NCBI GenBank assembly: GCA_003136555.1
Contig: PLEW01000056.1
Coordinates: forward strand, 25,716 to 89,715
Source of the DNA: Planctomycetota bacterium
GTDB lineage: Bacteria; Planctomycetota; UBA11346
DNA: 64,000 bases
Reading direction: 5' to 3'
The translations under genes and the position numbers were made by a program. Positions 16,375-61,497 of the stretch are shown piece by piece (position 1 is the first letter of the stretch; each line of letters starts with the position of its first letter). The notes beneath the pieces were generated by a model. It saw only the letters and a program-made list of their open reading frames with translations, made no database searches and had not been told where the DNA came from.

Positions 16375-16382
16375 CCAGAGGC

Positions 16383-18610: not shown

Positions 18611-18616
18611 GGGATA

Positions 18617-20407: not shown

Positions 20408-20436
20408 GACTGGTTCCTTGCGAGCGGAGGTCGAAG

Positions 20437-24015: not shown

Positions 24016-24026
24016 GAACGGTTCGT

Positions 24027-46781: not shown

Positions 46782-46989
46782 GGGATCGAGATCTTCGGCG
46801 CACGAGGTCGAGGAGGTCCAGGCGGGAAGCATGCTGGCCGGTGCCGTCCCACCGGGGTCTGTGCACAGGTACCTCTACCGAGTTAGTAACCGTTCGCTAG
46901 TGATTGTGCAGCCGGCGCTCATCACGGGTGAGGTCGGTAGTAGTTGTGAACACCGCGTCGACAGGCGTACCGATCGGTCTGCAAGGTAG

Positions 46990-47394
46990 CTAGGGTACGT
47001 CCAGGCCGAGGGTCTTGCGCGCAGTGGCGATGCCGCCCAGGTTCTCAACGTTGGCATAGCCCTTGTCCTTCAGCGTCGCGAGTGCTAGCGCCGCGCGACC
47101 GCCACTACGGCAATAGAGGCCGATGTGCGCTGTCTTATCGCTCGTGATCTCGGCGATGTGCACGGCGATCTGATCGTAGGGGATGTGCACTGCACCCTCG
47201 ATGTGCCCGCTATCCCACTCCTCCTGCGAGCGCACATCGATGACATAGCGGCCGGCAATCTGGATGACGCTGGGAGCTGGTGCCACGTCATCGGCCGCCT
47301 GAAGAGCCATGCCGCTCAGCAGCAGGACGACGATGACAACTATTGGCATGATGGATTGCGAGTGTTTGCGCTTCAGGCGCGTGGCAATCGGCAT
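46990..47394 (-). CDS. Periplasmic single-domain rhodanese (sulfurtransferase)
   Basis: Signal peptide, then IDVRSQEEWDSGHIEGAVHIP and the active-site loop LYCRSGGRA. It starts 29 nt after the C1 stop and is probably co-transcribed. Confidence 0.85.
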   Translation of the reverse strand: MPIATRLKRKHSQSIMPIVVIVVLLLSGMALQAADDVAPAPSVIQIAGRYVIDVRSQEEWDSGHIEGAVHIPYDQIAVHIAEITSDKTAHIGLYCRSGGRAALALATLKDKGYANVENLGGIATARKTLGLDVP

Positions 47395-47423
47395 TCGGCC
47401 TTAGCGACCACTCGCAGCGGAGG

Positions 47424-48650
47424 TCAGTAATAGGTTGGCTGTGTCACCAGGCGCTCGACCCAACGAATGGTGCCGACCGGGTTTTTGGTCCAGGTCTGGG
47501 TGCGATTCCCGACGCTCCAGGTGTGGCTGGCGTTGGCTGGCCACATCAGGTTATGCTCAACGCCGACGTCACCATGCTGAAGGTTGTGATAGGTCTGCTC
47601 CATGACCGACGGGGACCATTCGATGCGATACCAGATACGCAGTTCATTTGCCGCCAGGGAATTGAAGAAGCCGGGATCGTTGTTGAACATGGCGGCGGCA
47701 CTTGGACCGCCGACGCTGGCTGCTTCGGCATAGCTCGTATAGCCCATCGTCGCTCCGGAACCGCAGGTGATGACGAAGGTCGCAGGGCCATCGCGGTAGA
47801 CGCGGAACCATGATTTCCCCGTCGTCTGCTGGCGTGGCGTCGGATCACCATGGACGAAATCGGTGAGTGTCGCGCCATTCTGCCCATCATCGTAGAGCGC
47901 GCCCGTGACCGTCCCGGAAGTGGCTTGCTGAGGCCAACCATTGCTGACCACGGGCATCGGATCCGGATATTGGATATAGGGCAGGCCGAAGAGCGCATTG
48001 CCAGGAGTCGTATTGATGGGATTGTAGACGGCAGTGAGCTGGGTGGCATAGGGCGGGCGCTGCATGACGTACATCGGGCAGATCGCGACACTGCCAATGG
48101 CTGGCCAAGCGGGGCGATTCCAGCCGCTCCCATTGCTCTCCACCAGGGCGGTGCTCCAGACGGCATAGGTGCTATAGGGGAGCGTGGCTGGAGAAGGTGC
48201 ACGCACGTTCGGTCCGATCGAGCCATCGCGCACGTCGATCCAGCCATAGGTCTCCTGATGCGCCGGCATCGTGGCTGGACTCGGGGAGGATAGGATGGTG
48301 CCTGAGAGCGAGAGGACACCTGATCCGTTCGGCAGTGTCTGGGGAGGCGGTATGATCGCACTCGGGTGGGCTGGAGCGCCTTGATAGTAGGGGAAGTTGG
48401 CATCCCAACCCAGGCGCGAGGTCTCCTGCACATAATTGCACGCAGCGGCAAGCATAATTTTGGCCTGCGCCAATTGCATGACGACCTGGGTCTCCTCGGA
48501 GTCCGAGCGCATGCGAGCCAGGAACACCAGGCTCATGCTGGCAAGCAGTGCAGACAGCCCCGCGACGATTATCAGGATGGTCCCGCGCTGATGGCGCGAC
48601 CTGCGAGGAACAGACGGAGCGATGGTAATCACCTGCATGGTAGCATTCAC
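47424..48650 (-). CDS. Giant GspK/PilX-like pseudopilin-type protein C1 (pilin-type N-helix without Glu+5)
   Basis: GTG start. N-terminus ...RRSRHQRG|TILIIVAGLSALLASMSLVFLARM. The ~370-aa Trp/Tyr/Pro/Asn-rich body has no domain I recognise. By eye it is roughly 70% identical to 54108..55343. Confidence 0.6.
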   Translation of the reverse strand: MNATMQVITIAPSVPRRSRHQRGTILIIVAGLSALLASMSLVFLARMRSDSEETQVVMQLAQAKIMLAAACNYVQETSRLGWDANFPYYQGAPAHPSAIIPPPQTLPNGSGVLSLSGTILSSPSPATMPAHQETYGWIDVRDGSIGPNVRAPSPATLPYSTYAVWSTALVESNGSGWNRPAWPAIGSVAICPMYVMQRPPYATQLTAVYNPINTTPGNALFGLPYIQYPDPMPVVSNGWPQQATSGTVTGALYDDGQNGATLTDFVHGDPTPRQQTTGKSWFRVYRDGPATFVITCGSGATMGYTSYAEAASVGGPSAAAMFNNDPGFFNSLAANELRIWYRIEWSPSVMEQTYHNLQHGDVGVEHNLMWPANASHTWSVGNRTQTWTKNPVGTIRWVERLVTQPTYY

Positions 48651-48658
48651 GATTTCAT

Positions 48659-50086
48659 TTAGGGGGTCGGCGAGTCGAGGTTCGGTTGGTTGCCTTGGCC
48701 CGGATTGGGACCCGGAGTCGTGGTCATAGCTGCTGGATCATCATCCCAATGAGCCCAGCCAGAGCCGCCCGAAGTGTCGTTCGGGTCTTTGCGTTGCATA
48801 CGCGCACCGCGCAACGTTGTTCCCAGGCCGAGGAAGGAGATCTGGGTAACGGAACCCGTGATGGAGCTGCGCCGATTGATTTTCGCCACGGCAACGAAAT
48901 GATCGCATTTCACCAATCGCCCCACGGTCGTGTAGACGCCTGGCCAGTTGGTCGGCTCGAGAGGCAGCAAGTTCTGCGGGAAGGCGGTATGCGCGAGGAG
49001 GTCCTGCAGACCGACAGCCCCCCACTGGACGCCACTGCCGCCGTTGAACGCAGTGTAGTCGCTGTCGAAATGCATGTAATGCCGCCAGAAGATGCCCGGC
49101 TCGCCTGTCGGATCGGCGGGAGCCCAGGGGTTGAAGTAGCCGAAGGACGTCGAGTAGGTCTCGCGGTAGATGCCGCACGCCGTGACTTGCCCGCCATCTG
49201 AATTACGAAACCCGCCCCAGGACCCCCATTGGGGCATGGTGGCCAGGAGACTCAGGCCGCCGGCGCTGGTCGAACCGGATGCCCCCATGTAATAGGCATA
49301 GAGGGCATTCGGGGGGAGATACTCGCACATGGCCTGGTAGCCAAGGGCGCCGAGGAAGAATTGAATCTGGTTCGGATACCAGAGATGGGGAATGACCATT
49401 GGAGGAGAGTATCCGACAGAGTAGCTGGTCGACGTTGTCGGATTCGTGACAGTCCACGAGTTGAGTGCCGGTGTCGCGGAAACATTCGAGAAGATGGCAT
49501 AGCGTCCGAAGAGGACCGACGGTATCGACGGAGTAACACCCCCCCAGCCAGAGCCGGAGGATTTTTCTGCCGGATTGACCTGGCACCAGGTGCGCGGGTC
49601 GCTCGGGGTCCAGGAGACCGTCGGATCGAATCCAGTATCCTTCTCCCAAGGATCAAGCGGATCGGTATCTTTCGCCGATGGATAGGGGCCAGGACGCGGC
49701 TTGATCTCCCCATAGGTCAACGGCGATCCCGCTTTAATGGCGCTGGGGGGATTCTCCTGATTGGCTCCGTTGCAGATGAGGGACATCGGCGTGAACGGCA
49801 TGCCGCTTGGAGAGTTGGTCGGTCCGGTATTCGGGTACCCACGGAGCTTCTGGTTGCTGGGATTGTTCGGATCATCGAGAGACGTCCAGAAATCGAGGTC
49901 ATTCTGCACCTGGAAGTAGCCAGCTCGCAGCATGGCGTTCTCGAGCGACAGCTGGTTCGAGACCGTGATGGCCTGGGATGCCGTGCGAACGCCGGCAAAA
50001 GCGGTATAAAGGATGAGAGAGCCAAGACCGATCGACAACATCAGCTCGATCAATGTGAAGGCACTCGTGGGACGATGCAGGGTCAT
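48659..50086 (-). CDS. Giant prepilin-type protein B1 (GspJ/PilW position)
   Basis: N-terminus MTLHRPTSA|FTLIELMLSIGLGSLILYTAFAG is a class III signal with Glu+5. The 475-aa body is unknown. It is a paralog of 55340..57040. Confidence 0.65.
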   Translation of the reverse strand: MTLHRPTSAFTLIELMLSIGLGSLILYTAFAGVRTASQAITVSNQLSLENAMLRAGYFQVQNDLDFWTSLDDPNNPSNQKLRGYPNTGPTNSPSGMPFTPMSLICNGANQENPPSAIKAGSPLTYGEIKPRPGPYPSAKDTDPLDPWEKDTGFDPTVSWTPSDPRTWCQVNPAEKSSGSGWGGVTPSIPSVLFGRYAIFSNVSATPALNSWTVTNPTTSTSYSVGYSPPMVIPHLWYPNQIQFFLGALGYQAMCEYLPPNALYAYYMGASGSTSAGGLSLLATMPQWGSWGGFRNSDGGQVTACGIYRETYSTSFGYFNPWAPADPTGEPGIFWRHYMHFDSDYTAFNGGSGVQWGAVGLQDLLAHTAFPQNLLPLEPTNWPGVYTTVGRLVKCDHFVAVAKINRRSSITGSVTQISFLGLGTTLRGARMQRKDPNDTSGGSGWAHWDDDPAAMTTTPGPNPGQGNQPNLDSPTP

Positions 50087-50095
50087 GGCAAGCCT

Positions 50096-52264
50096 TTACC
50101 GCAGGATCGCCTGGACGCGGGGATCGTAGAAGTTGAATCGTGCGACCAGCTGCGCCCGCAGGCGGACCGATCGTGGGACCGGGCCGCGATCGAGCACCTG
50201 ATTGTAATTCCGATCGGCACCGTACAGGCCGCTGAAGACTGATTCCTGCGTGGTGCCCGATCCCTGATCGGGTGCACTGTTCCAGGGATTATTGAGGATT
50301 TCCCAGCCTGTTGTCACGGTTCCGGTTGCCACATTTGCGGTCGGCTGCATGAAGAGTTCGCACTTCTCGGGATTGCGGAACGCCCACATCTGCTCGTCAC
50401 GGAACTGCATGTCTCCCATGCGCAGGTACATGTTCCGCTGATTGTACCAGGGTGGCCAAGAGCTGCCTGAGCCGTTGTTCGCGCCCCAGGAGGTGCAGCG
50501 GGGGGAACTCAGCGCATACTTGCTGGCATCGACGGGTGCGCTGGGCAGGGTCTCGAAATCCTCGTAGGACTGCCAGTCGACCGCCCAGAAGACGATTTCG
50601 CGGCAACGCTCAGCGGCTTTGAAGGGAGCCGCCAGCGTATAATGGTCGATGTTCCCGAAAATCGATCCATTGACCTGGGCGCTTGCGGAGCTGCCTTGCT
50701 GCATGGTCGCATCGAGTCCGATGATGCCTGCCGGGATCGTCCAGCTGGGGGACTGGGAAGAGGTGGCGTTCATCACCGGATACGTCTGGCTGACGCCGAT
50801 ATGCTGAATCGGCTCTGCCGACACCGGGCGCCATCCCACCGCCGGGGCATTTGGTTGCGAGCCAAAGACGGTGCCCACCAGCGGCGGAGACCACATGTCG
50901 CTCATGATCAGGGGGTAATCCATCATGATGGTACGGTTGGTCGGCCTGGGAATGGCCCAATCGTAGGGATACATGGCGCAGAATTGCATGATCAGATACA
51001 TCGCCCGTTCGTGGTAGTAGCGAATGCCCTGATCAAAGATGGTGATGGAGGATTGGCCGGCGGGAGGCATGCTGGTGAAACCATTCGCGGTCATAGGAGG
51101 GATGGTGACGCCCGAGTTGGAAAGATCCATGTGGCCGGAGGCCGTATCGCTGTAGGCGAACCAGGAGGTCAAGGTCGTGGCGGCATGGCTGAGGAAGCGG
51201 AAGGCCTGCACTTCCTTCCAGCGATCGGTTTCGGTGTTGGTCAAGAAGGGCGCATGGGCGTCCAGGGTCTGGACGTTGCCGGGCGAGAAGTAATCGGTTC
51301 CCGTGCCGAGCTTCTTCTGGAAATACCAGACCGCCGCCTGGGCATAGCCAATGGCGCCTGTCATGCTGGGAGCGACGCCCACATATCCGTCCGGGAAGGT
51401 GGTCGGACCATTATGATTCTGCAGTTGCAATCCGCAGGCATAGGGGAAATACCCGACGTGGACCATGCCGGGAACAAGCGGCCAATCGTAGACCACATGC
51501 ATGTCGGGATCGAGATTGCTGGGGATGGATTCCCAGGGAATGTCCCAATCCTCACCATAGTAACTGGTCGGGCCCATGGAGAGCGGGCTTGGCCATGGGT
51601 GATAGGACCAGTAGGCACCACCGGCTTGATTGCCATTCGGGGGGATCCACATGTCCGGCATGTGTGACGCGTTCAAGGGAGGCGACGGCATGGGGCAGAA
51701 ATAGGGCCAATCCTTCATCGCCATCATATGCAGGCAATTTTGCTGCGCATACCCAGAGACGGCAAAAATGAGCTTCTGGATGTCATTCGGCGGACTCGCC
51801 GGGTTGCCCTGCTCTTCCGTCTCGGTTGTAGCCATGGCCTGCGAGTAATAGATGTACCCGCCTTGGCTGAGCACCTGCTGGATCTCGTCGTTGTCGGAAT
51901 CCAGGCGCCCAGCCAGGGCGAGGGGAAGCGGCATGATGCCATAACGAGGCGACGACAAGCGCGCCTCCAGGTCCCAGGCTTGTGCCCGATAGCCACCCGA
52001 CGTATCCCATGGCATCAAACCTTCCGTATCAATCGAGGGATTGGCATTCGTGGTGGAAGTAAACGACTCGACCATTTCCTCGGCCTTGGCGGACGCATAG
52101 ATCTGGAATCGGGCCATTTCCTGAGCTTTGATGCCAACTGGGAAGAGCATGAGGACACTGACCACGCCGAAGGTCACCAGAACCAGGGAGATGGCGACCT
52201 CGAAAAGGGTGAATCCGCCCCGACTGGGGCTTGGAATACGTTTGGAGGGTCTGCACAGAGGCAT
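50096..52264 (-). CDS. Giant prepilin-type protein A1 (GspI/PilV position)
   Basis: N-terminus MPLCRPSKRIPSPSRG|GFTLFEVAISLVLVTFGVVSVLMLF is a textbook prepilin cleavage/methylation motif. The 722-aa body is unknown. It is a paralog of 57050..59308. Confidence 0.65.
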   Translation of the reverse strand: MPLCRPSKRIPSPSRGGFTLFEVAISLVLVTFGVVSVLMLFPVGIKAQEMARFQIYASAKAEEMVESFTSTTNANPSIDTEGLMPWDTSGGYRAQAWDLEARLSSPRYGIMPLPLALAGRLDSDNDEIQQVLSQGGYIYYSQAMATTETEEQGNPASPPNDIQKLIFAVSGYAQQNCLHMMAMKDWPYFCPMPSPPLNASHMPDMWIPPNGNQAGGAYWSYHPWPSPLSMGPTSYYGEDWDIPWESIPSNLDPDMHVVYDWPLVPGMVHVGYFPYACGLQLQNHNGPTTFPDGYVGVAPSMTGAIGYAQAAVWYFQKKLGTGTDYFSPGNVQTLDAHAPFLTNTETDRWKEVQAFRFLSHAATTLTSWFAYSDTASGHMDLSNSGVTIPPMTANGFTSMPPAGQSSITIFDQGIRYYHERAMYLIMQFCAMYPYDWAIPRPTNRTIMMDYPLIMSDMWSPPLVGTVFGSQPNAPAVGWRPVSAEPIQHIGVSQTYPVMNATSSQSPSWTIPAGIIGLDATMQQGSSASAQVNGSIFGNIDHYTLAAPFKAAERCREIVFWAVDWQSYEDFETLPSAPVDASKYALSSPRCTSWGANNGSGSSWPPWYNQRNMYLRMGDMQFRDEQMWAFRNPEKCELFMQPTANVATGTVTTGWEILNNPWNSAPDQGSGTTQESVFSGLYGADRNYNQVLDRGPVPRSVRLRAQLVARFNFYDPRVQAILR

Positions 52265-53257
52265 GGTCGGATCCGATGGGGAACGAAGGGCGTCGCTTAG
52301 TGGACGCCGTGAACAAGCAGAGCCGGACTCGGATAACGAACCGCTATGGCAGGTTCATGTTGATGCCGGCAGGACAGGTGTGCAATTGATGCAGGGGCCC
52401 ATGCAACCAAGAAGAACCAGCTCAATGAGATCCCTGGTCGCTGAAGTGTGGGAAGCACGGCAATGCGCATACGTAACGTTTCCTATACTCCGACATTGCA
52501 AAAGCTGACACGCAATCTGCCGTGATGCCTGGGTCGTGTGGCGCCGCCCCCCCGATGGCATGGGACTCACTCGACAGGGAGGACGAGCGGCTGGATGCTT
52601 GTGGAGCGTTGGGCGCCACGATGCCCTGATGAGTGGGTCAGCAGCCAGAATGGCCTTGGGAGTGTAACAGACCCGTGTCGCGGTAAGGGGTACAGTCCTG
52701 CCGGGGCAGGACAGGCTACACCCAGCGGGACCCCGCCCACAACAAGGGCAGCCCTTGTCGTGATGTGGCATGCCGCTGAACGGGGACAGGACGCAACGGG
52801 CAAGCGCAATGATTCGAGGTCTTGGCAGCAAGATCGCAGGAGATCAGTATGCCCACCAAGAACGGAGTACGCATTGCAAGCGACGGTATAGCGCTATTGG
52901 TATATTGCCAACCATACCAAGGATCAAGCACAGGTATCCGCTTAAGGACAGCCAGCTCGGTCGACCCGGTGCAGGTCGGTCCATGCCACGCCAGGCCTGC
53001 GGACAAAGGGAACTGCGCGCGAATGGGTTCCCAGGCGTAGCCGCAAGGCCCAGTTTACCACAGGCCACGTGGACGGTGCGCCCCCGGGTCGACAGTTCCG
53101 ACAGCTGTGACGCTGGGGGGTTCGGGTTGGGAACGGTCATCCTCGTTTATTTTTTAAGGCGCGCGAGACTTCCTCCAGTGCCCCTTCTGGTGCAGCCCAA
53201 TACGTTCGGCGGGGCGATGTAGCCACTCTCCCCATCAATTCGGGAGCACAGTGCTTC

Positions 53258-54078: not shown

Positions 54079-54107
54079 TCCTCTTCGGTCGCCGTACGTG
54101 AAGGCGG

Positions 54108-55343
54108 TCAGTAATAGGTCGGCTGCGTCTGCAGGCGCTCGATCCAGCGAATGGTACCGACCGGATTCTTCGCCCAGGTCTGAGTGCGTTGGGCCACGCT
54201 CCAGGTATGGCTGGCATTGGTTGGCAGGAGCAGGTAATGCTCCTGTATTGAGGTGGCTCCGGTCTGGACGTTCTGATAGGTCAATTCCATGGTCGCGGCC
54301 GACCATTCGATGCGATACCAGATTCGTATTTCGTCCTGGGCGATGGCCATGAAGGTGTTGGGGTCATTGTTGAACTGAGCCTGGGCGACGGCGCCCCCGA
54401 TAGAGCTGAGTTCGGACCAATCCTTCCAGCCCAGGGTACCGCCGGCGCCGCAAGTGATGACAAAGGTCTGCGGCCCATCGCGGTAGACACGGAACCAGGA
54501 CTTGCCCGCGGTCTGCTGCCGCGGCGTCGGATTGCCATGGACGAAATCGTTGAGTGTCGCGCCTTGCTGCCCGTCGTCATACAGAGCGGTCGAGATGGTT
54601 CCTGATGTCGATGACTGCGGCCAGCCATTGGACACCACGGGCATCGGATCGGGATACTGGGTGTATGGATAGCCGAAAGTCGCATCAGTAGGATTGACGT
54701 CGATCGGATTGTAGACGGCGGTGAGCTGGGTGGCGTAAGGAGGCCGTTGCATCACAAACATCTGGCAGATCGCGACGCTGCCCATTGCCGGCCAGTAGGG
54801 CCGTGTCCAGCCGTGTCCATCGCTGAGTACGGGCGTGTTGCTGTACGCAGCATAGGTGGAATAGAGGGTTCCGACCGGATTGGCGGTCTGCGGGCGGTAA
54901 TTGGGGCCGATCGATCCATCGCGCACATCGACCCACCCGTAGGTCTCCTGGTGCCCGGGCAGCGTGGCGGGGGATGGGGGCGTTATAGAGCCGCTGGTTG
55001 GCGAGATGACGCCGGTGCCATTGGGCAAGGTGACCGGCGTGGCATTGGGGACAGGGGAGTTTGGCGAAGGATTGCCGTAGTACGGATAATTGACATCCCA
55101 GCCGAGCCGCGAGGTCTCCTGGACATAGTTGCAGGCGGCAGCCAGCATGATCTTCGCCTGCGCCAATTGCATCACCACCCCTGTCTCCTCGGTGTCGCTG
55201 CGCATGCGCGCGAGGAACACGAGGCACAGGGTGGCGAGCAGGGCTGAGATGGCTGCGACCAGGATGAGAATGGTGCCGTGGCGTTGGTGTGACCTGCTGC
55301 GGATGAGAGGTGCGATGGGAGTCATGGGCATGTCAGCATTCAC
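54108..55343 (-). CDS. Giant GspK/PilX-like pseudopilin-type protein C2
   Basis: The GTG start overlaps the B2 stop (GTGA). N-terminus ...SRSHQRHG|TILILVAAISALLATLCLVFLARM has no Glu+5. It ends in QTQPTYY, like C1. Confidence 0.6.
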   Translation of the reverse strand: MNADMPMTPIAPLIRSRSHQRHGTILILVAAISALLATLCLVFLARMRSDTEETGVVMQLAQAKIMLAAACNYVQETSRLGWDVNYPYYGNPSPNSPVPNATPVTLPNGTGVISPTSGSITPPSPATLPGHQETYGWVDVRDGSIGPNYRPQTANPVGTLYSTYAAYSNTPVLSDGHGWTRPYWPAMGSVAICQMFVMQRPPYATQLTAVYNPIDVNPTDATFGYPYTQYPDPMPVVSNGWPQSSTSGTISTALYDDGQQGATLNDFVHGNPTPRQQTAGKSWFRVYRDGPQTFVITCGAGGTLGWKDWSELSSIGGAVAQAQFNNDPNTFMAIAQDEIRIWYRIEWSAATMELTYQNVQTGATSIQEHYLLLPTNASHTWSVAQRTQTWAKNPVGTIRWIERLQTQPTYY

Positions 55344-57040
55344 GGTTGCGTTTGGGGTGTCGGCGAGTCGAGATTCGGTTCGTTGCCTTGGCCCGGATTG
55401 GGTCCAGGAGCCGACGTCATGACTGCTGGATCATCATCCCAATGTGCCCATCCTGTTCCGTAGGTTGGGTCTTTGCGCTGCATTCGTGCTCCGCGCAGGG
55501 TGGTGCCCAGGCCGAGAAAGGAGAGTTCGACCGTGGCGCCCGTCAGTGGGTTGAGACGGCGGATCTTCGCTACCGAGACGAAGTGACCGGTCTTCACCAG
55601 GCGTCCAACGGCGGTCATGACAGTCGGCCAGTTCGTCGGCTCGAGCGGAAGCATCGATTGCTCAAAGGCGGTATGGGCGAGCAGATCCTGCAGGCCGAGC
55701 TCTCCTCCATTCGGTCCACTCCCTCCGCTGAAGGCGGTATAGTCGCTATCGAAATGCATGTAATGCCTGGGAAAGATGCCGGGTTCGCCATTCGGATCGG
55801 GCGGAGCCCAGGGATTGAAGTACCCGAAGGAGGTCGAATAGGTCTGCCGGTACATGCCGATGGAGGTGATCTGGTTGCCGTCCCAATTGCGAAAGCCCCA
55901 GTAGGGACCCCAGCCCGGTTGGGTGCACTGCCGGGACATGCCGCCAGCAGTACACGGAGTGCCCCAGTCCCATTCGTTGGAAGGTTCGTGCCCACCTGTC
56001 GGAGTGTAGTTATAGTTGGGCGCCCCTGCATACTGGAGACCGGTCATGCCCGACGGCTGACTCATATAGAAGTTATAGATGGCATTGGGCGGCAGGTACT
56101 CGCACATCGCCTGGAAGCCGAACAGGGTCAAGAACAGCTGGATCTGGTTAGGATACCAGGTGTGCGCTATCAGATTCGGAGTTTTGTAGGTCACCATGTA
56201 CGGGATGTCTTGCGGCGGGGACGGTGGTGGGGGGTTGGAGCCGGAGTTGGGCAGCGAGTAAGCTTGCCCGATGAAATTGAGGTTCCAGCCGATCTGCCAG
56301 GAACCGAACGTGACGGGTTGGCTAGACGTATTCGGGAGCAGGTTCGAGAACAGGCCGTATCGGCCAAAGGTCACCGGTGGGACGAACGACCCATAGGGCA
56401 GCGGGGTGGTGCCCCAGTAATCCTGCTTGCCGTAATTGGCATCCAACGGATTGGTGTCCCAGCCTGGGCCATTATAGGCGAGATCCTTCTCCGCCATGTT
56501 CACTCGGACCCAGGTGCGAGGGTCGGAGGGTGAATACGAGACCGTCGGGTCGAAGAAGGTATCGGCCTCCCAGGGATCGCTGTAGCTAGGGATCGGACCA
56601 AAGAGATACCCTGGTGGGCGCGGCTTGATCTCGCCGTAGGTCGTCGGGGAACCGGCGGTGATGGCCGGCTGTATGGTCGGGCCGCGCAGCGTTATGTTCT
56701 TGACGCCATTAGCCAGATTGAGCATGGACATGGGCGTGAACGGATTGCCGGGGATGGTATTCGAGGCGGATACGGACCAGGTGCCCCCAGTGGGGCGCAG
56801 CTTCTGATTGGAGGTGTTGTTGGGATCATCCAGTGAGGTCCAGAAATCGAGATCATTTTGCACCTGAAAGTAGCCGGCGCGCAGCAGACTATTCTCCAAG
56901 GAAAGGCTGTTGGCGATGGTGATCGCCTGCGATGCCGTGCGGAAGCCAGCGAAGGCGGTATAGAGAATCAGCGTTCCGAGCAGAATCGAGATCATCAACT
57001 CGATCAGCGTGAATGCGTTCGTGGTGCGATGGTAAGCCAT
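55340..57040 (-). CDS. Giant prepilin-type protein B2
   Basis: N-terminus MAYHRTTNA|FTLIELMISILLGTLILYTAFAG. GAGG lies 6 nt upstream of the ATG. At 566 aa it is longer than B1 through internal insertions. Confidence 0.65.
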   Translation of the reverse strand: MAYHRTTNAFTLIELMISILLGTLILYTAFAGFRTASQAITIANSLSLENSLLRAGYFQVQNDLDFWTSLDDPNNTSNQKLRPTGGTWSVSASNTIPGNPFTPMSMLNLANGVKNITLRGPTIQPAITAGSPTTYGEIKPRPPGYLFGPIPSYSDPWEADTFFDPTVSYSPSDPRTWVRVNMAEKDLAYNGPGWDTNPLDANYGKQDYWGTTPLPYGSFVPPVTFGRYGLFSNLLPNTSSQPVTFGSWQIGWNLNFIGQAYSLPNSGSNPPPPSPPQDIPYMVTYKTPNLIAHTWYPNQIQLFLTLFGFQAMCEYLPPNAIYNFYMSQPSGMTGLQYAGAPNYNYTPTGGHEPSNEWDWGTPCTAGGMSRQCTQPGWGPYWGFRNWDGNQITSIGMYRQTYSTSFGYFNPWAPPDPNGEPGIFPRHYMHFDSDYTAFSGGSGPNGGELGLQDLLAHTAFEQSMLPLEPTNWPTVMTAVGRLVKTGHFVSVAKIRRLNPLTGATVELSFLGLGTTLRGARMQRKDPTYGTGWAHWDDDPAVMTSAPGPNPGQGNEPNLDSPTPQTQP

Positions 57041-57049
57041 GCAGACCTC

Positions 57050-59308
57050 TTAGCGCAGGATCGCGGGGACGCGCGGATCGTAGAAATTGAAACGCCCCAC
57101 CAGCTGGGCGCGAATGCGGACAGATCTCGGCAGGGGACCGCGGTCGAGGACCTGATTGAAATTCCGGTCGGCGCCGTAGAGGCCGTTGAAGACATGGTCG
57201 GCGGTGTTGTCCAGCTTGCCGACCCAGGACTGGTTGGCACCCTGGTCGGGGGGTGGATAGCCCCACTGATTGGGAACATTAAGCATCTCCCATTGATAGG
57301 CTCCATTCAGCCCGACCAAAGGCGTGCCGGTCGGATATTGCGACATGTCCTGAAGGAAAAGCATGCTCTTCTCGGGGCTGCGGAACGCCCACAGCTGCTC
57401 GTCTCGGAATGCCATGTCGCCCATGCGCTGATAGAACGTGCGCTGCTGGCTCCACAGGCTGAAGGTCGGGGGGTTGACATTGCCGCTGCCTGTGGTCGTG
57501 CGGGGCCCAGACAGCGGGTATTTGCTGGCGTCAACCGGCGCGCTGGGCAGGGTCTCGAAATCCTCATATGACTGCCAATCAGCGGCCCAAAACACGATTT
57601 CGCGGCAGCGTTCGGCCGGTTGGAAGGGTGCCGCCAGAGTATAATGGTCGATGTTGCCGAAGATAGACGTCGGGGCCGGCGACGTGTTTGCCCCTCCCAT
57701 CATGGAGGCATCCAGCGCGACGATCCCCGACGGGATGGTCCAGCTCGGACTCTGATTCGATTGCGCAGCCATGATCGGGTAGGTCTGGCTGACGCCGATG
57801 TGCTGAATGGGCTCGCTGGAGATGGGCCGCCAACCTGCTGCCGGGACGGTCGGCTGCGAACCGAACACGGAGCCTACGAGCGGCGGCGAGTACAGGTCGC
57901 TCATGAGCAGTGGGTAGTCAGTCATGATTGTACGGTTGGTCGACCTGGGTACAGCCCAGTCGTAGGGATACATGGCGTAGAACTGCATGAGCAGGTACAT
58001 CGCCCGCTCGTGGAAGTAGCGGATATCGCCATCATAGATGTAAATATTGGAGCTCCCGCCAGCGCCATGGCTGGTGAATCCATAGATGGTGGCCGGTGGG
58101 ATGAGTGCGCCTCGCGCGCTGAGGTCCATGTTCGCCGGATTCGAATCGCTATAGCTGATCCACGATGTCAGCACCGTGGATGCATGGGCGAGGAAGCGGA
58201 AGGCCTGAACTTCCTGCCAGCGGTCGGTTTCGACCGTGCTGACAAAATCGGCATGCGGGTCGAGCGTAGCGGAGCCGCCAGGATTACCGCTCGAGAAGAG
58301 CATGGAATATTTCCCCGTCGGATCCATCTTCTTCTCGAAATACCACACTGCCGCCTGTACGTAGCCGAGGGCGGTCTGCAGACAGGGGGCTATCCCCAAC
58401 GTGCCATCGGCAAAGGTAGTGGGTGAGACCTGCGCAGGATAAGGTATCGAAGTGGTCGTCTGGCCCCAGTAGATCGTTCCGCACGCATAGGGAAAATAGC
58501 CGATATGAGGATAATGGGAACCAGCCGGCAACGGAGGAGCCGAGGGATTCACATAAGGGTAGTCATAGACGACTCCCATGTCGGGATCGAGGTTGAAGGG
58601 AATGGATTCCCAGGGAATATCCCAGTCCTCGCCGCAATAAGGCCAACTGTGGAAGCTCCAATAGGAACCGCCGGCTTGAGTGCCAGGTTTGGGCAGCCAC
58701 ATGTCGGGCATGTGCGACATATGCATCGGTGGGGAGGGCATGGGTGTGGAATAGGGCCAGTTCTTCATTGCGAACATGGTCAGAGAGTTTTGCTGGGCGT
58801 AGCCGCTGATTGTGAAGATGAGCTTCTGGGCATCGTTGGGTGGCGCCTTTGGATTGCCTTGCTCTTCTGTCTCCGTGGTGGCTAAGGGCTGAGAATAGTA
58901 GATGTAGCCGCCTTGGCTGATGATCTGCTGGATCTCATCGCTATCGGAGTCGATGCGCTGGGCGAGAGCGACCGGAAGCGGCATGATGCCATAGCGATGC
59001 GAGGAGAGGCGAGCCTCCATGTCCCAGGCCTGGGCGCGATAAGCGCCGGCGGTATCCCAGGGCATCAGACCTTCAGTATCAATTGCTGGGTTGGCGTTGG
59101 TCGTCGCGTTGAAGGTCTCGACCATCTCTTCGGCTTTACAGGCGGCATAGACGCGGAAACGTGCCATCTCCTGCGCCTTGATGCCGACTGGGAACAACAT
59201 GAGCACGCTGACCACGCCGAAGGAGACCAGGACCAGCGATATGGCGACTTCGAAGAGCGTGAAGCCACGTCGTAAGGGACGAGGGTGAAGCTGAATGAGT
59301 CTGCTCAC
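57050..59308 (-). CDS. Giant prepilin-type protein A2
   Basis: Track ORF 57050..59518. The prepilin motif ...PLRRG|FTLFEVAISLVLVSFGVVSVLMLF lies 85 codons into that ORF. I place the start at in-frame GTG 59308 (MSRLIQLHPRPLRRG|F), giving a 15-aa leader like that of A1. The alternative is ATG 59518. Confidence 0.6.
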   Translation of the reverse strand: MSRLIQLHPRPLRRGFTLFEVAISLVLVSFGVVSVLMLFPVGIKAQEMARFRVYAACKAEEMVETFNATTNANPAIDTEGLMPWDTAGAYRAQAWDMEARLSSHRYGIMPLPVALAQRIDSDSDEIQQIISQGGYIYYSQPLATTETEEQGNPKAPPNDAQKLIFTISGYAQQNSLTMFAMKNWPYSTPMPSPPMHMSHMPDMWLPKPGTQAGGSYWSFHSWPYCGEDWDIPWESIPFNLDPDMGVVYDYPYVNPSAPPLPAGSHYPHIGYFPYACGTIYWGQTTTSIPYPAQVSPTTFADGTLGIAPCLQTALGYVQAAVWYFEKKMDPTGKYSMLFSSGNPGGSATLDPHADFVSTVETDRWQEVQAFRFLAHASTVLTSWISYSDSNPANMDLSARGALIPPATIYGFTSHGAGGSSNIYIYDGDIRYFHERAMYLLMQFYAMYPYDWAVPRSTNRTIMTDYPLLMSDLYSPPLVGSVFGSQPTVPAAGWRPISSEPIQHIGVSQTYPIMAAQSNQSPSWTIPSGIVALDASMMGGANTSPAPTSIFGNIDHYTLAAPFQPAERCREIVFWAADWQSYEDFETLPSAPVDASKYPLSGPRTTTGSGNVNPPTFSLWSQQRTFYQRMGDMAFRDEQLWAFRSPEKSMLFLQDMSQYPTGTPLVGLNGAYQWEMLNVPNQWGYPPPDQGANQSWVGKLDNTADHVFNGLYGADRNFNQVLDRGPLPRSVRIRAQLVGRFNFYDPRVPAILR

Positions 59309-60135
59309 GAGTATGTCGGATCCGATGGGTGAAGAAGGTTGACGTTCAGTGGCGGCCGCGAGGCGGTCGAAGTGGACTCGAAAGTCGCACTGCCATGGGA
59401 GGCTAACGTCAATTGCGCATATGTGCAAATGATGAAGAGGTCCCGGTGACTGCGTTGAAGAACCTCTGCGAGAGCCGCGGCCGCGGCAGAATCTAAGGAA
59501 GGCTGCAATTTGATGCATACGGCCTGCCTCCTATGCTCCGAGATCGGTAAAAATAACGAGTGATCATGCCTCATGGCCTGGGGGTCCGCTCGTTGGATTA
59601 TGGCATTGAGTGCAGTGATAGGAACGATGCACCAGGATGGGTTGCAGTCGGCTTGGCGTGTCGAGTGCAAACGAACCCCTTCCGATGAGTTGATCACGTC
59701 TGCATTGGATCGTCGCTGGTCCCTCCGGCCGAGTTCCCTGTTCGCCCAGTGGCACAAAACGACTTCCGGCAAAGCAGAGACGAAGAGACGCGAAGTGACA
59801 GCGCAACGATTCGTGGTCTCGGCGGCAAGAAGGCCGCCATGTACATCATAGAGGGCATAGTACTCGTAGGCAGAGACGGCCTGACTGCGTTAGGGTATCT
59901 CACGGTCGCGATGATCAAGCTCAGGTTTAAGCCTACCTACAGCAGACCCTGAGAGCGACGCGGTCCTCCGCTCGACGGCATAAGACGCTGCGGAGTCAGT
60001 ACTGGAATCGGTCATCCTCGTGTCATGTAGGCACGTTAGACTCCCCCCGGTGCCGCGTCTGGTGCAGCCCCCAGCGTTCAGTGGGACGACGTAGCCGCTC
60101 TCCCCTATCCACTGGAGAGGACGGCGCTTCAGCGT

Positions 60136-61497
60136 GTGTCGGAGATAATCATAATGATCAACCAAGCCCCCCCGAGACCGACTGCCGAGGCGCATGCCAT
60201 GCCCACAGACCCCATTGATCGCCCCCAGCGAGTACCACTGCCGCCGCCGCAGCGCAGTGGAGGGGGAGGGTGGTGGCTAGTGGTGGTGGTGCTGCTCCTC
60301 GGCGTGCTGGTGGGGGGATATGTCCTGTACACCCGGCAGGCCAAGCCGCCGGGACCAGCGGGTCAGGGGGGGGGTCCACGCTCGGGTCCAGCTGCGGCGC
60401 GCGCCATTCCGGTGCTCACCGGGCGTGCCAAGCGCGGTGATCTGCCTATCTACCTGACCGGCCTGGGCACGGTCACACCGCTTGCCAACGTCGTTGTCCG
60501 CAGCCGCGTCGATGGCCAGCTCATGCATATCGGCTTCGTGGAGGGTCAGATGGTCAAGGCGGGGGATGTCATCGCCGAGATCGACCCGCGGCCGTTTGCC
60601 GCCGCGCTCAAGCAGGTCGAAGGGCAATTGCTCAAGGATCAGGCGGTGCTGGATAATGCGCGCATCGATCTCAAGCGGTACCAGGACGGCGGTGACATCT
60701 TCTCCGATCAGCAGACGGCGACGCAGCAGGCTTTCGTCAAGCAGAACCAGGGCATCGTCGAATCCGATCAGGGGCTGGTGGACAATGCGCGTCTCCAGCT
60801 CGACTACTGCAGGATTGTCGCGCCGACGAATGGCCGCATCGGCCTGCGCACGGTCGATGAGGGCAACATGGTGCATGCCAGCGATACCACGGGATTGGCG
60901 GTCATCACCGTTCTCCAGCCCATTACCGTGATCTTCACCATCGGGCAGGATGACATCCCGTCCGTCCTCACCCACATGGCCAGCGATCCCCATCTGGAAG
61001 TCGATGCCTATAGCCGCGATCTGAGCAAACGCCTGGCCATGGGCACGCTCAGCGCCATCGACAACCAGGTCGATCCAGGCAGCGGTACGGTGCGCTTGCG
61101 TGCACGCTTCGATAACGCGGATCATCAGCTGTTCCCCAACCAATTCGTCAATGTCCGCCTGCTGATCGATACCCAGCACGGCGTGATCCTGGTACCCACC
61201 GCCGCCGTGCAGCTGGCACCTGATGGCAATTTCGTCTATGTGGTCGGTCAGGATTCCACGGTCTCGGTGCGCAAGGTGACCACCGGGGCGAGCGAAGAGG
61301 GCCTGACCATCGTCGACGGCATCGCCATGGATGATGTGGTGGTGACCGATGGTGTCGACAAGCTGCAAGCCGGCACCAAGGTGCAGACCCGCGCTCCGGC
61401 AAATGGTGGTGCGCATGATGCCGCAGTTACCGGTAAGTCTGCACCGGCAACCGGTACGGCAGCTCCTGCTGCTGGAACGCCGGACCATCAGCGATGA
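60136..61497 (+). CDS. mdtA: RND multidrug efflux periplasmic adaptor, MdtA family
   Basis: Long colinear similarity to E. coli MdtA as I recall it: YLTGLGTVTPLANVVVRSRVDGQLMHIGFVEGQMVKAGDVIAEIDP, QLDYCRIVAPTNGRIGLR, LFPNQFVNVRLL. The start may be ATG 60154 or 60199. Confidence 0.85.
   Translation: MSEIIIMINQAPPRPTAEAHAMPTDPIDRPQRVPLPPPQRSGGGGWWLVVVVLLLGVLVGGYVLYTRQAKPPGPAGQGGGPRSGPAAARAIPVLTGRAKRGDLPIYLTGLGTVTPLANVVVRSRVDGQLMHIGFVEGQMVKAGDVIAEIDPRPFAAALKQVEGQLLKDQAVLDNARIDLKRYQDGGDIFSDQQTATQQAFVKQNQGIVESDQGLVDNARLQLDYCRIVAPTNGRIGLRTVDEGNMVHASDTTGLAVITVLQPITVIFTIGQDDIPSVLTHMASDPHLEVDAYSRDLSKRLAMGTLSAIDNQVDPGSGTVRLRARFDNADHQLFPNQFVNVRLLIDTQHGVILVPTAAVQLAPDGNFVYVVGQDSTVSVRKVTTGASEEGLTIVDGIAMDDVVVTDGVDKLQAGTKVQTRAPANGGAHDAAVTGKSAPATGTAAPAAGTPDHQR

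What the first reader, a model, noticed from the sequence alone, without database searches (positions are those of the whole stretch)
47058..61112. Classical tandem segmental duplication whose junction preserves two decaying gene fragments
Manual alignment shows unit 1 (about 47058..53738) and unit 2 (about 53738..61112) are colinear. Each runs rhodanese - C - B - A - long non-coding leader - 5' part of mdtA. As expected for an A-[BC]-[BC]-D duplication, the leftmost rhodanese (46990..47394) and the rightmost mdtA (60136..61497) are intact. The junction near 53738 joins a truncated mdtA' (53258..53738) head-to-tail with a 3'-truncated rhodanese' (53738..54078). mdtA' carries internal deletions and a CAG->TAG change at 53614. 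Rhodanese' carries TGA at 54061, TAG at 53899 and a lost active-site Cys. All six pseudopilin-like ORFs have stayed open, although the paralogs have diverged by about a quarter to a third of residues by eye. That argues for selection on both copies.
Basis: seen in the sequence. Interest (0 to 1): 0.6.

Follow-up and report, generated by a model that had tools for sequence, protein, structure and literature searches.

The report
Tandem pilin-like operon duplication, mosaic ages
A roughly 7-kb block carrying three giant pilin-like genes sits twice in a row in a peat planctomycete, with broken pieces of the two neighbouring genes at the joint; both copies are kept working, but the broken pieces look much younger than the genes they flank.

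Summary
Unit 1 (47061-53735) and unit 2 (53736-61112) are colinear direct repeats at 69-85% nucleotide identity. The outer rhodanese and mdtA genes are intact. The joint holds a decayed mdtA' and a decayed rhodanese'. Contigs from two other DNA runs bridge the joint with no differences.

All six A/B/C genes are open. Pairwise dN/dS is 0.16-0.20. Amino-acid change is symmetric between the two copies. Contigs from RNA libraries lie on both cassettes. Both copies are therefore maintained.

The "classical" single-event reading does not hold fully. Silent sites of A/B/C are near saturation, with fourfold p of 0.56-0.59. The two scars differ from their intact parents by only 17% and 23% (Fisher p of 5e-14 and 4e-4). 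Rhodanese and rhodanese' split after the nearest species did; A1 and A2 did not. Recombination has therefore reshaped the unit. Either the scars were gene-converted, or one cassette arrived already diverged.

A/B/C is an uncharacterised trio specific to Planctomycetota, with about 8 loci in this genome and tandem arrays in relatives. The scan already holds a note on this same stretch.

The parts
46990..47394 (-). Intact rhodanese gene (134 aa). The left duplication breakpoint lies 71 nt before its 3' end, at 47061.
   Evidence: Pfam PF00581 E=1.1e-15; open ORF; active-site motif YCRSGGR present.
47061..53735 (.). Repeat unit 1 (6675 nt): rhodanese 5' part, C1, B1, A1, leader 1, copy of the mdtA upstream region, mdtA'.
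   Evidence: Colinear blastn HSPs and piecewise alignment.
47424..48650 (-). C1 (408 aa). It has an N-terminal hydrophobic helix preceded by R-G-T but no Glu5. No significant family match.
   Evidence: Alignment invariants G19, L22, I23, V25. Atlas leads only: PilX_N 0.84, T2SSK_1st 0.82.
48659..50086 (-). B1 (475 aa). Class-III signal-peptide motif A|FTLIE.
   Evidence: PF07963 N_methyl E=0.0022, below the cut-off. F10, T11, I13 and E14 are invariant in 12 homologs. Modelled N-terminal helix 12-64 at pLDDT 72-78.
50096..52264 (-). A1 (722 aa). Class-III signal-peptide motif G|FTLFE.
   Evidence: TIGR02523 PilV, N-terminal 55 residues, E=8.8e-6, below the cut-off. The motif is shared by P0002-P0007.
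52265..53108 (-). Leader 1 (844 nt, non-coding). Homologous to leader 2 but rich in indels.
   Evidence: Global alignment score 170.5 against shuffled 9.4 +/- 15.3, with 439/628 aligned columns identical. No conserved ORF, no Pfam match, no Rfam match.
53109..53257 (+). Duplicated copy of the region just upstream of mdtA.
   Evidence: 43/159 differences from 59984-60135.
53258..53735 (+). mdtA' pseudogene. It corresponds to the first 977 nt of mdtA, now 478 nt long. It has frameshifting indels, a 445-nt internal deletion and a TAG at 53614.
   Evidence: 80/462 differences, split 33/155, 19/155 and 28/152 over codon positions 1, 2 and 3.
53735..53736 (.). Duplication joint (mdtA' | rhodanese'). 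No long repeat is visible at the breakpoints.
   Evidence: Bridged by independent contigs.
53736..54078 (-). Rhodanese' pseudogene. It lacks the last 71 nt of the gene, has 3 in-frame stops and has lost the catalytic Cys.
   Evidence: 74/316 differences, split 20/106, 21/105 and 33/105 by codon position; 1 TGA and 2 TAG.
53736..61112 (.). Repeat unit 2 (7377 nt): rhodanese', C2, B2, A2, leader 2, and the first 977 nt of intact mdtA.
54108..55343 (-). C2 (411 aa), paralog of C1.
   Evidence: 69.0% amino-acid identity, dN/dS 0.20.
55340..57040 (-). B2 (566 aa), paralog of B1 with about 90 extra residues in insertions.
   Evidence: 68.7% amino-acid identity over 467 aligned codons, dN/dS 0.16.
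57050..59308 (-). A2 (752 aa from the GTG at 59308; the ORF is open up to 59518), paralog of A1.
   Evidence: 71.4% amino-acid identity, dN/dS 0.16. The start is inferred from the shared upstream motif. The database protein P0005 begins at the same place.
59309..59983 (-). Leader 2 (675 nt, non-coding).
60136..61497 (+). Intact mdtA-like RND adaptor gene. The right breakpoint is at 61112. It is followed by mdtB (61494 to the window end).
   Evidence: NCBIfam NF008589 E=7.6e-117. mdtB matches NF007798, 1215.9 bits.

Best explanation
This is a genuine, old tandem duplication. The copied segment ran from inside the rhodanese gene to inside mdtA and carried a three-gene operon (A-B-C) for giant pilin-like proteins plus its upstream leader. 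Illegitimate recombination between position 47061 and the equivalent of 61112 produced rhod-CBA-leader-mdtA'|rhod'-CBA-leader-mdtA. Both cassettes have since been kept by purifying selection as distinct, expressed paralogs. Most likely they are alternative minor-pilin-like sets for type IV filament or type II secretion machinery encoded elsewhere in the genome. The two gene stumps at the joint decayed into pseudogenes. The unit does not have one age. The cassettes split at least as long ago as the nearest sampled species diverged, but the stumps are 2-3 times less diverged from their parents. My preferred account is that the stumps were re-copied (gene-converted) from the intact flanking genes after the duplication, separately for each stump, and then decayed again. 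Shown here: the architecture, the pseudogenisation, the selection on both copies and the age mismatch. Inferred: gene conversion as the cause, and the pilus-related function.
For: Architecture and reality of the joint. Both copies under selection: NG86 gives omega of 0.204 (C, 406 codons), 0.158 (B, 467) and 0.156 (A, 707). Polarised amino-acid changes on copy 1 versus copy 2 are 62/65 (A, G001 as outgroup), 27/23 (B) and 16/27 to 21/24 (C); all 10 tests are non-significant. Contigs from RNA libraries of two studies lie on A1 and B1 and on C2, B2 and A2 at 99% identity or more. Stumps decay neutrally: with the G001 rhodanese as outgroup, the pseudogene branch has 10/9/12 changes by codon position and the intact branch 2/2/6. 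In mdtA block 2 the counts are 8 (pseudogene) against 3 (intact). Age mismatch: fourfold-site p is 91/158, 103/175 and 139/249 for C, B and A, with F81 d of about 1.4. The stumps show 80/462 and 74/316 differences. Third positions are 28/152 and 33/105 against 779/1580 in A/B/C (Fisher p of 5.5e-14 and 3.9e-4). Same clock, different split times: third-position p is 0.44 for rhodanese between G000 and G001 and 0.43-0.45 for A1 or A2 against the G001 A gene, yet 0.48 for A1 against A2. Polarised counts (outgroup branch versus within-pair branches) are 23:18 for rhodanese and 25:85 for A (Fisher p=1.6e-4). The two stumps appear to differ in age (0.17 against 0.23 overall; 0.18 against 0.31 at third positions), which suits two separate conversion events. 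A+B+C modules also occur as tight tandem pairs in G007:C2 and G002:C784 at 67-77% nucleotide identity, so in-situ tandem copying appears to be a usual way for this family to grow. Function: the G|FTLFE and A|FTLIE motifs with Glu5 are invariant. The genome has a Peptidase_A24 match above the family cut-off and 9 T2SSE ATPase matches above the cut-off.
Against: Gene conversion is inferred, not observed. No conversion tract with near-zero divergence is visible. Two separate events are needed. If conversion was active in the stumps, it is unclear why it spared the silent sites of the cassettes. The G001 rhodanese used as outgroup is the best hit (E=2.8e-43) but is not syntenic, since no A/B/C lies beside it, so orthology is assumed. 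dS is saturated, so omega values and ages are rough. An RNA library can contain DNA, so expression is only suggested. The pilin reading lacks fold support: both AlphaFold models are poor (pLDDT 49.5 and 41.7), and no Pfam or NCBIfam match reaches its cut-off.
Confidence: 0.4

Rival explanations
1. Captured or replaced cassette. The two cassettes were already about 25-30% diverged when the joint formed. One route is that a DNA fragment from a related strain, carrying rhod'-C-B-A-leader-mdtA, integrated beside the resident allele through homologous recombination at one end and illegitimate joining at the other, or through Campbell-type integration of a circularised fragment. The other route is a younger in-situ duplication followed by replacement of one cassette with a diverged homolog. 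The stumps then date the event, while the cassettes carry older allelic divergence.
For: One event explains both the architecture and the age mismatch. In the A tree, A1 and A2 are no closer to each other than to copies from three other organisms: there is a 5-member clade with 100/100 support whose inside is a polytomy, with A2+P0003 at only 54/31. At fourfold sites, A1 and A2 agree against G001 at 25 sites, compared with 39 for A1=G001 and 46 for A2=G001. Cassette and flanks are uncoupled in relatives: in G001 the A gene (C697) and the rhodanese (C228) lie in different, non-syntenic contexts. From general knowledge rather than from any call, long identical tandem repeats are unstable, whereas pre-diverged units would be stable from the start. 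Homology-facilitated illegitimate recombination is a described mechanism (PMC3240628; only the start of its abstract was seen, in the listing).
Against: No donor-like genome or alternative allele at this locus was found. A1+A2 as sisters is not rejected (p-AU 0.459). The family is not obviously hypervariable between close relatives: G003 and G010 have A copies with terminal branches of 0.009-0.029. Base composition is alike in the two units. The two stumps seem to differ in age, which one event does not predict unless allelic divergence before the event differed between rhodanese and mdtA.
Confidence: 0.3
2. Simple classical duplication: one in-situ event in which all parts have the same age, and the lower divergence of the stumps reflects local rate differences or chance.
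For: This is the most parsimonious architecture. A1+A2 as sisters is not rejected. The leaders are still alignable, with 439/628 aligned columns identical, which is less divergence than saturated fourfold sites would suggest.
Against: A stump with one neutral branch should differ from its parent by at least about half the silent-site distance of the cassettes (d of about 0.7, p of about 0.4). The observed values are 0.17 and 0.23, in ungapped blocks of 242, 117 and 277 nt at 82%, 85% and 78% identity. The Fisher tests give p of 5.5e-14 and 3.9e-4. The silent-site clock for rhodanese and for A against G001 is the same (0.44 against 0.43-0.45), so A is not simply fast.
Confidence: 0.12
3. A two-cassette ancestor (rhod-CBA-CBA-mdtA, like the tight arrays in G007 and G002) was duplicated as a whole, and each unit then lost a different cassette.
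For: Tight tandem arrays without scars exist in relatives. This would make the cassettes older than the joint.
Against: It needs three events, two of them precise reciprocal deletions that each keep a leader. No remnant of the lost cassettes is seen in 52265-54107.
Confidence: 0.05
4. Assembly artefact: alleles from two strains were concatenated by the metagenome assembler.
For: The genome is a MAG of 253 contigs, 86% complete.
Against: Independent runs give contigs across the joint with 0 differences, and DNA depth is even over both units and the flanks in X12. The stumps carry stops, frameshifts and a 445-nt deletion, which a strain allele of a functional gene would not have.
Confidence: 0.02

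Closest known systems
Tandem segmental duplication by illegitimate recombination, with truncated flanking genes at the joint (general model of bacterial duplication and amplification; recalled, no paper read for it here)
   Same: Head-to-tail units, intact outer genes, and a single novel joint made of the 5' part of the right-hand gene and the 3'-truncated left-hand gene.
   Different: It is old and stabilised, with units about 30% diverged. Both copies are under purifying selection. The divergence is mosaic: the joint scars are younger than the cargo.
Multiple minor-pilin sets that prime distinct type IV filaments on shared machinery (Synechocystis, PMC13759059, abstract read; Myxococcus xanthus PilY1/minor-pilin priming and tip complex, PMC7541494, abstract read; 'multiple minor pilins/PilY1 sets' in M. 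xanthus, bioRxiv 10.1101/2021.07.28.454143, only the start of the abstract seen in the listing)
   Same: Several paralogous operons of proteins with class-III signal peptides exist in each genome, encoded away from the machinery. About 8 loci are present here, together with a prepilin peptidase and T2SSE ATPases elsewhere in the genome.
   Different: The proteins are 408-822 aa, several times the size of canonical minor pilins (sizes recalled). There are three genes per set and no PilY1-like gene was seen. No Pfam domain lies beyond the N-terminus. The pilin fold was not demonstrated.
Type II secretion GspI-GspJ-GspK pseudopilin tip complex, or PilV-PilW-PilX (order and the absence of Glu5 in GspK are recalled, not tested)
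   Same: The trio order is conserved. The first two proteins have G/A|FTLxE with Glu5, and the third has the hydrophobic helix without Glu5. There are weak N-terminal hits to PilV (E about 1e-5) and ComGG (E=0.008), and Atlas leads to PilX_N and T2SSK_1st.
   Different: All hits are below the family cut-offs and cover only the N-terminal 55 residues or so. There is no neighbouring gspG/H or other machinery genes in the window.
Homology-facilitated illegitimate recombination (PMC3240628, only the start of the abstract seen in the listing)
   Same: It would give exactly one illegitimate joint plus one invisible homologous crossover, adding foreign DNA next to a resident homolog.
   Different: Nothing here shows a foreign origin. 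This is a candidate mechanism for the rival explanation only.

Membership tests
Tandem segmental duplication | Two adjacent, same-orientation, colinear copies of a multi-gene segment | tested here: met
   8 colinear blastn HSPs with offsets of 6675-7332 nt; 17 large repeat families.
Tandem segmental duplication | One novel joint that combines truncated copies of the two genes hit by the breakpoints, with the outer copies intact | tested here: met
   mdtA' (53258-53735) abuts rhod' (53736-54078); the outer rhodanese and mdtA are intact.
Tandem segmental duplication | Physical continuity across the joint in independent data | tested here: met
   X12 contig 53581-56544 and X13 contig 53584-57511, each with 0 other letters.
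Tandem segmental duplication | Uniform age of all parts of the unit, as a single event without later exchange would give | tested here: not met
   Stumps are 0.17 and 0.23 diverged against cassette third positions of 0.49 and fourfold sites of 0.56-0.59; Fisher p of 5.5e-14 and 3.9e-4.
Tandem segmental duplication | A single-copy ancestral state in relatives | tested here: inconclusive
   No syntenic rhod-CBA-mdtA locus was found in 10 other genomes of the genus, in 47 other genomes of the family searched with P0003, or in 21 metagenome loci. All of these are incomplete MAGs or short contigs.
Type IV pilin-like proteins (class-III signal peptide) | N-terminal G/A|F-T-L-x-E motif followed by a hydrophobic helix | tested here: met
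   Met for A and B: GFTLFEV and AFTLIEL; invariants F10, T11, I13, E14 in B; A homologs. The Pfam N_methyl hits are below the cut-off (17.9-20.2 bits against 21.2). C has the helix but no Glu5.
Type IV pilin-like proteins (class-III signal peptide) | Pilin fold (long alpha-1 helix packed on a beta-sheet) | tested here: inconclusive
   The AlphaFold models have pLDDT 49.5 (C1) and 41.7 (B1). Only the N-terminal helix is confident. Profile searches against PDB sequences gave nothing below E=0.5. No fold search was run on such models.
Type IV pilin-like proteins (class-III signal peptide) | Prepilin peptidase and assembly ATPase present in the genome | tested here: met
   PF01478 match at 39.1 bits, above the cut-off. 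9 PF00437 matches above the cut-off. None lies in the window.
Type IV pilin-like proteins (class-III signal peptide) | Incorporation into a filament, or the A-B-C proteins forming a complex | not testable with these tools
This needs biochemistry.
MdtA/MuxA RND adaptor (right flank) | Full-length match to the family model | tested here: met
   NF008589 at 390.5 bits against a cut-off of 391 (marginally below). TIGR01730 RND_mfp at 212 against 94.9 (above). Followed by an MdtB-like permease.
Rhodanese (left flank) | Rhodanese domain with the catalytic Cys | tested here: met
   PF00581 at 58.3 bits against 22.2. YCRSGGR is present in the intact copy and has become YRPPGGR in the fragment.

The most novel reading that the evidence does not exclude
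The second cassette was never an identical copy. A diverged allelic A-B-C cassette from a related planctomycete was captured next to the resident one, by one homologous and one illegitimate crossover. This produced a 'born-diverged' tandem pair whose truncated flank scars record the event. It would be a concrete mechanistic example of family expansion by acquiring a homolog that mimics a duplication, and it would avoid the instability of identical tandem repeats. It would also imply that these giant pilin-like trios are exchanged as cassettes.
Probability: 0.3. Interest if true: 0.6.

Novelty: new member of a known kind. Interest (0 to 1): 0.4.

Why it matters
The locus is a well-preserved natural record of how a multi-copy surface-filament gene family grows in Planctomycetota, because the breakpoints, the scars and both retained cassettes are all still readable. 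It also works as a caution. The scars that seem to prove a simple duplication are 2-3 times younger than the cargo, so dating duplications from paralog divergence alone, or assuming that a tandem pair began as identical copies, can be wrong. The cargo is an uncharacterised trio of giant pilin-like proteins. It is confined to one planctomycete family among the genomes sampled, has many loci per genome, and appears in peat metatranscriptome libraries. If the sets are alternative priming or tip complexes, they would extend the idea of one machine with several specialised minor-pilin sets to a phylum where it has not been studied.

Tried and rejected
**Structure**
- AlphaFold2 was run on C1 and B1 with 12-sequence alignments and gave pLDDT 49.5 and 41.7. 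These models are too poor for a fold search, so none was run.
- Profile searches against PDB sequences gave nothing below E=0.5.
- The ESM Atlas search for C1 returned only unnamed Planctomycetota/Verrucomicrobiota clusters, with PilX_N and T2SSK_1st below the lead threshold.

**RNA and regulatory signals**
- Rfam found 0 matches at E up to 1 over 46000-62000.
- The promoter/terminator scan of 52000-54300 found 0 and 0 sites.

**Leader**
- The leader ORFs 52355-52831 and 59305-59772 are not similar as proteins (E=0.70). The five ORFs in the leader and joint have no Pfam match.
- The short leader motifs shared by the two units do not recur upstream of the 5 other A-family genes in this genome that were inspected.

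**Ancestral state**
- G001:C697 carries a clade member but with unrelated upstream DNA.
- G001:C228 has rhodanese without A/B/C. G004:C24 has mdtAB without A/B/C.
- The metagenome scan gave only a 1.4-kb fragment 100% identical to the window plus paralogs at 61% identity or less.
- P0003's genome is not among the 48 family genomes searched.

**Read laying**
- The joints 48081->55100 and 48249->55487 have sides of only 22-24 letters, so I treat them as cross-matches between C1 and C2, not as deletion variants.
- RNA-library contigs give no cover over about 52548-53555. This is not used as evidence of silence.

**Polarisation**
- mdtA block 1 (60220-61461 region, N-terminal low-complexity part) aligns poorly to the G004 outgroup, so those counts are not used.

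Full report

Yes. The repeat finder reports 17 large two-copy direct-repeat families within 46000-62500. Their start-to-start spacings are 6675-7332 nt and their identities 71-85%. blastn of 46000-53900 against 53501-62500 gives eight colinear HSPs, from 47061<->53736 to 53691<->61023. The two largest cover 2195 nt at 71.7% (1100 bits) and 2060 nt at 69.0% (803 bits). Piecewise alignment extends the homology to 53735<->61112. Unit 1 is therefore 47061-53735 (6675 nt) and unit 2 is 53736-61112 (7377 nt).

Two public peat-metagenome runs not flagged as a possible source give contigs that cross the joint at 53735/53736 with no differences: X12 at 53581-56544 and X13 at 53584-57511. In X12, DNA depth is even over the flanks and both units. 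Contigs break near 53550-53584, where mdtA' shares a 39-nt perfect run with mdtA. That is the behaviour expected of a k-mer assembler at a true repeat.

**2. Anatomy**

All cargo genes are on the minus strand.
- The intact rhodanese is at 46990-47394 (Pfam, 58.3 bits against a cut-off of 22.2).
- Unit 1 carries C1 (47424-48650), B1 (48659-50086), A1 (50096-52264) and an 844-nt leader.
- Next comes a copy of the 150 nt upstream of mdtA (53109-53257), followed by mdtA' (53258-53735, plus strand).
- After the joint come rhodanese' (53736-54078), C2 (54108-55343), B2 (55340-57040), A2 (57050-59308) and a 675-nt leader.
- The intact mdtA (60136-61497) and mdtB follow.

A2 most likely starts at the GTG at 59308. 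The string CCCATCGGATCCGAC precedes both A starts, and the database protein P0005 starts at that point.

mdtA' corresponds to the first 977 nt of mdtA. It carries indels of 1, 13, 445, 14 and 31 nt and an in-frame CAG->TAG at 53614. Rhodanese' lacks the last 71 nt of the gene, has one TGA and two TAG in frame, and has lost the catalytic Cys, with YCRSGGR changed to YRPPGGR.

The leaders are homologous but rich in indels. The global alignment score is 170.5, against 9.4 +/- 15.3 for 100 shuffles, with 439 of 628 aligned columns identical. They contain no conserved ORF, no Pfam match and no Rfam match.

**3. Are both cassettes maintained?**

Nei-Gojobori estimates (my script) are:

| Pair | Aligned codons | Amino-acid identity | dN | dS | omega |
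|---|---|---|---|---|---|
| C1/C2 | 406 | 69.0% | 0.234 | 1.15 | 0.20 |
| B1/B2 | 467 | 68.7% | 0.267 | 1.69 | 0.16 |
| A1/A2 | 707 | 71.4% | 0.233 | 1.50 | 0.16 |

dS is saturated, so omega is, if anything, overestimated.

A pairwise omega cannot show on its own that both copies are constrained. I therefore polarised the amino-acid changes with outgroups. Changes on the copy-1 and copy-2 branches are 62/65, 40/35, 36/40 and 31/32 for A; 27/23, 22/18 and 22/21 for B; and 16/27, 21/24 and 19/25 for C. None of the 10 tests is significant. One decaying copy would give strong asymmetry and a pairwise omega near 0.5. Neither is seen.

Contigs from metatranscriptome libraries of two studies (X15, X16) lie on B1 and A1 and on C2, B2 and A2. 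58 of the 59 laid contigs are at 99% identity or more. This suggests both cassettes are expressed. It does not prove it, because RNA libraries can contain DNA.

**4. The unit does not have one age**

| Region compared | All sites (p) | Third positions (p) | Fourfold sites (p) |
|---|---|---|---|
| C1/C2 | 0.30 | 0.46 | 91/158 = 0.58 |
| B1/B2 | 0.33 | 0.53 | 103/175 = 0.59 |
| A1/A2 | 0.30 | 0.49 | 139/249 = 0.56 |
| mdtA' vs mdtA | 80/462 = 0.17 | 28/152 = 0.18 | - |
| rhod' vs rhodanese | 74/316 = 0.23 | 33/105 = 0.31 | - |

The fourfold values sit against a compositional ceiling of about 0.65, which gives an F81 distance of about 1.4. By codon position, mdtA' differs at 0.21/0.12/0.18 and rhodanese' at 0.19/0.20/0.31.

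A stump with one fully neutral branch should be at least as diverged as half the cassettes' silent-site distance, that is p of about 0.4. Third positions of the stumps against the cassettes (779/1580) give Fisher p of 5.5e-14 for mdtA' and 3.9e-4 for rhodanese'. All sites together (154/778 against 1471/4740) give p of 5.4e-11. The stump blocks are long ungapped stretches of 242, 117 and 277 nt at 82%, 85% and 78% identity, so this is not an alignment artefact.

**5. Calibration against speciation**

The closest genome, G001, has a rhodanese homolog (63% identity, E=2.8e-43) and one A homolog (about 70% identity). Third-position p is 0.44 for rhodanese between G000 and G001 (32/72). It is 0.43 and 0.45 for A1 and A2 against the G001 A gene. 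The silent clock is therefore the same in the flank and the cargo.

A1 against A2 gives 0.48 at third positions and 0.55 at fourfold sites. That is no smaller than the distance from either copy to the G001 gene (fourfold 0.47 and 0.46). In contrast, rhod and rhod' are clearly sisters. With G001 as third sequence, third-position changes are 23 on the outgroup branch, 12 on the pseudogene branch and 6 on the intact branch. At fourfold sites of A the corresponding counts are 25 on the G001 branch, 39 on the A2 branch and 46 on the A1 branch. Comparing 23:18 with 25:85 gives Fisher p of 1.6e-4.

The pseudogene branch of rhodanese' has 10/9/12 changes by codon position, which looks neutral. The intact branch has 2/2/6, which looks constrained. 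For mdtA block 2, with G004 as outgroup, the counts are 8 and 3.

One caveat applies. The G001 rhodanese is not syntenic with any A/B/C module, so its orthology is assumed.

**6. Trees**

With 18 A-family proteins, A1, A2 and the G001 copy form a clade with 100% support that is unresolved inside. Adding two further database homologs (P0003 at 69% and P0004 at 67%) gives a five-member clade with 100/100 support. Within it, G001 and P0004 pair (100/99), while A1, A2 and P0003 form a polytomy, with A2+P0003 at only 54/31. Holding A1+A2 together costs 0.42 log-likelihood units, with p-AU of 0.459. A lineage-specific duplication is therefore not rejected. If it happened, it was about as early as the split from the copies found in three other organisms.

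**7. How the mismatch could arise**

Three accounts remain.

(a) An old in-situ duplication, followed by gene conversion of each stump by its intact parent. The slightly different apparent ages of the two stumps suit two separate events. Tight tandem A-B-C|A-B-C pairs in G007:C2 (period about 5.2 kb, 67-77% nucleotide identity, spacer of about 335 nt) and in G002:C784 show that tandem growth is usual in this family.

(b) The cassettes were already diverged when the joint formed. Either a related strain's cassette was captured by one homologous and one illegitimate crossover, or one cassette was later replaced. Homology-facilitated illegitimate recombination is a described mechanism (PMC3240628; only the start of its abstract was seen, in the listing). 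A single event then explains everything. It also avoids the instability of identical 6.7-kb repeats, which is a point from general knowledge and not from a call. Against this, no donor-like allele was found, and A copies in G003 and G010 are nearly identical, so the family is not generally hypervariable.

(c) A simple duplication with unexplained rate differences. This is strained.

I rank them (a) 0.40, (b) 0.30 and (c) 0.12. A two-cassette ancestor with reciprocal losses gets 0.05 and an assembly artefact 0.02.

**8. What the cargo is**

A and B carry canonical class-III (prepilin) signal-peptide motifs with Glu5: G|FTLFEV in A and A|FTLIEL in B. F10, T11, I13 and E14 are invariant in 12 B homologs, and all A homologs printed share the motif. 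C has the hydrophobic helix after R-G-T but no Glu5. From memory, that is the pattern of GspK/PilX-type subunits.

All family hits are below their cut-offs and cover only the N-terminus:
- N_methyl at 17.9-20.2 bits against a cut-off of 21.2;
- PilV with E of about 1e-5;
- ComGG with E=0.008.

The AlphaFold models are poor (pLDDT 49.5 and 41.7). Only the long N-terminal helix is confident.

The A->B->C order is kept at all 17 loci where the contig extends far enough to show all three genes. The genome has about 8 such loci (13 matches). Homologs at E of 1e-20 or better occur in:
- 10 of the 10 other genomes of the genus;
- 16 of the 24 other genomes of the family;
- 0 of 16 genomes from other families of the phylum.

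In the large protein database, 175 proteins match at E of 1e-10 or better. None of the 120 listed has a Pfam domain. Where they are named, the names are 'hypothetical protein [Planctomycetota bacterium]' or, in 4 cases, 'type II secretory pathway pseudopilin PulG'.

A prepilin peptidase match and 9 T2SSE ATPase matches above the family cut-offs lie elsewhere in the genome. None lies in the window, whose other genes include a chemotaxis cluster, RND pumps and an ECF sigma/anti-sigma pair.

The best functional analogy is alternative minor-pilin priming or tip sets on shared machinery, as described for Synechocystis (PMC13759059, abstract) and M. xanthus (PMC7541494, abstract). An earlier first-reader note of this scan (e1-2886589) reads the same stretch as a GspI/J/K-like trio. 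I reached the same reading but could verify only the N-terminal motifs.

**9. Verdict**

The tandem duplication, its decayed junction fragments and the selective retention of both cassettes are real. As a phenomenon this is a new member of a known kind. The added value is twofold. First, there is a statistically clear age mosaic inside the repeat unit, which means the locus is not a clean single-event duplication. Second, the cargo is an uncharacterised, expanding family of giant pilin-like trios in Planctomycetota.

The ancestral single-copy state, the cause of the age mismatch and the function of the trio all remain open. The supplements of the cited papers were not consulted.

Noticed in passing
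L044 (G007:C2:10000-29999) 7220-17317; L045 (G002:C784) 3692-9304: Other genomes of the genus carry tight head-to-tail A-B-C|A-B-C arrays. The period is about 5.2 kb, nucleotide identity 67-77%, and the spacers about 335 nt with no flanking-gene scars. They belong to a different clade of the family from the window pair.
   Followed up: partly
window 48616-48767 vs 55309-55460: The B-end/C-start boundary is the best-conserved part of the cassettes, at 82% nucleotide identity. Fourfold p is only 0.27 in the last bin of B, which has about 15 sites. This could reflect local conversion or a constraint on translational coupling. C2 overlaps B2 by 4 nt, whereas C1 and B1 are 8 nt apart.
   Followed up: no
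window 53987-54375 and 52014-52421: One RNA-library contig (X16) runs from the 3' end of C2 into the rhodanese' remnant. Another covers the start of A1 plus 157 nt of leader 1. If these are RNA, the scar is co-transcribed with cassette 2 and A1 has a long 5' UTR.
   Followed up: no
window 14635-24129: A complete chemotaxis cluster on the minus strand: 2 MCPs in the cluster (a third at 4801-6822), CheB-Hpt, CheR, CheW, CheD-receiver and CheA.
   Followed up: no
window 43815-45766: A pair made of an ECF sigma factor (TIGR02989, Rhodopirellula/Verrucomicrobium type, 131 bits against a cut-off of 124.6) and a FecR-like anti-sigma factor. It lies just upstream of an Asp/Arg beta-hydroxylase-like gene (46080-46832) and the rhodanese.
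   Followed up: no
window 8864-13227: A second RND system in the window. It has an adaptor carrying a heavy-metal-binding domain and looks like a CusAB/CzcAB-type pump.
   Followed up: no
L012 (1432-nt metagenome contig): This contig is 100% identical to the start of A1 plus about 870 nt of leader 1. It ends about where the similarity to the mdtA upstream region begins, which is another assembly break at the repeat.
   Followed up: no
window 47061-61112, runs X1-X14: 14 peat-metagenome DNA runs hold at least 96% of the sampled words of 50000-58000 (11 of them are flagged as possible sources). The two runs laid show no variant positions, so the same strain with the same duplication is widespread in these peat samples.
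   Followed up: partly
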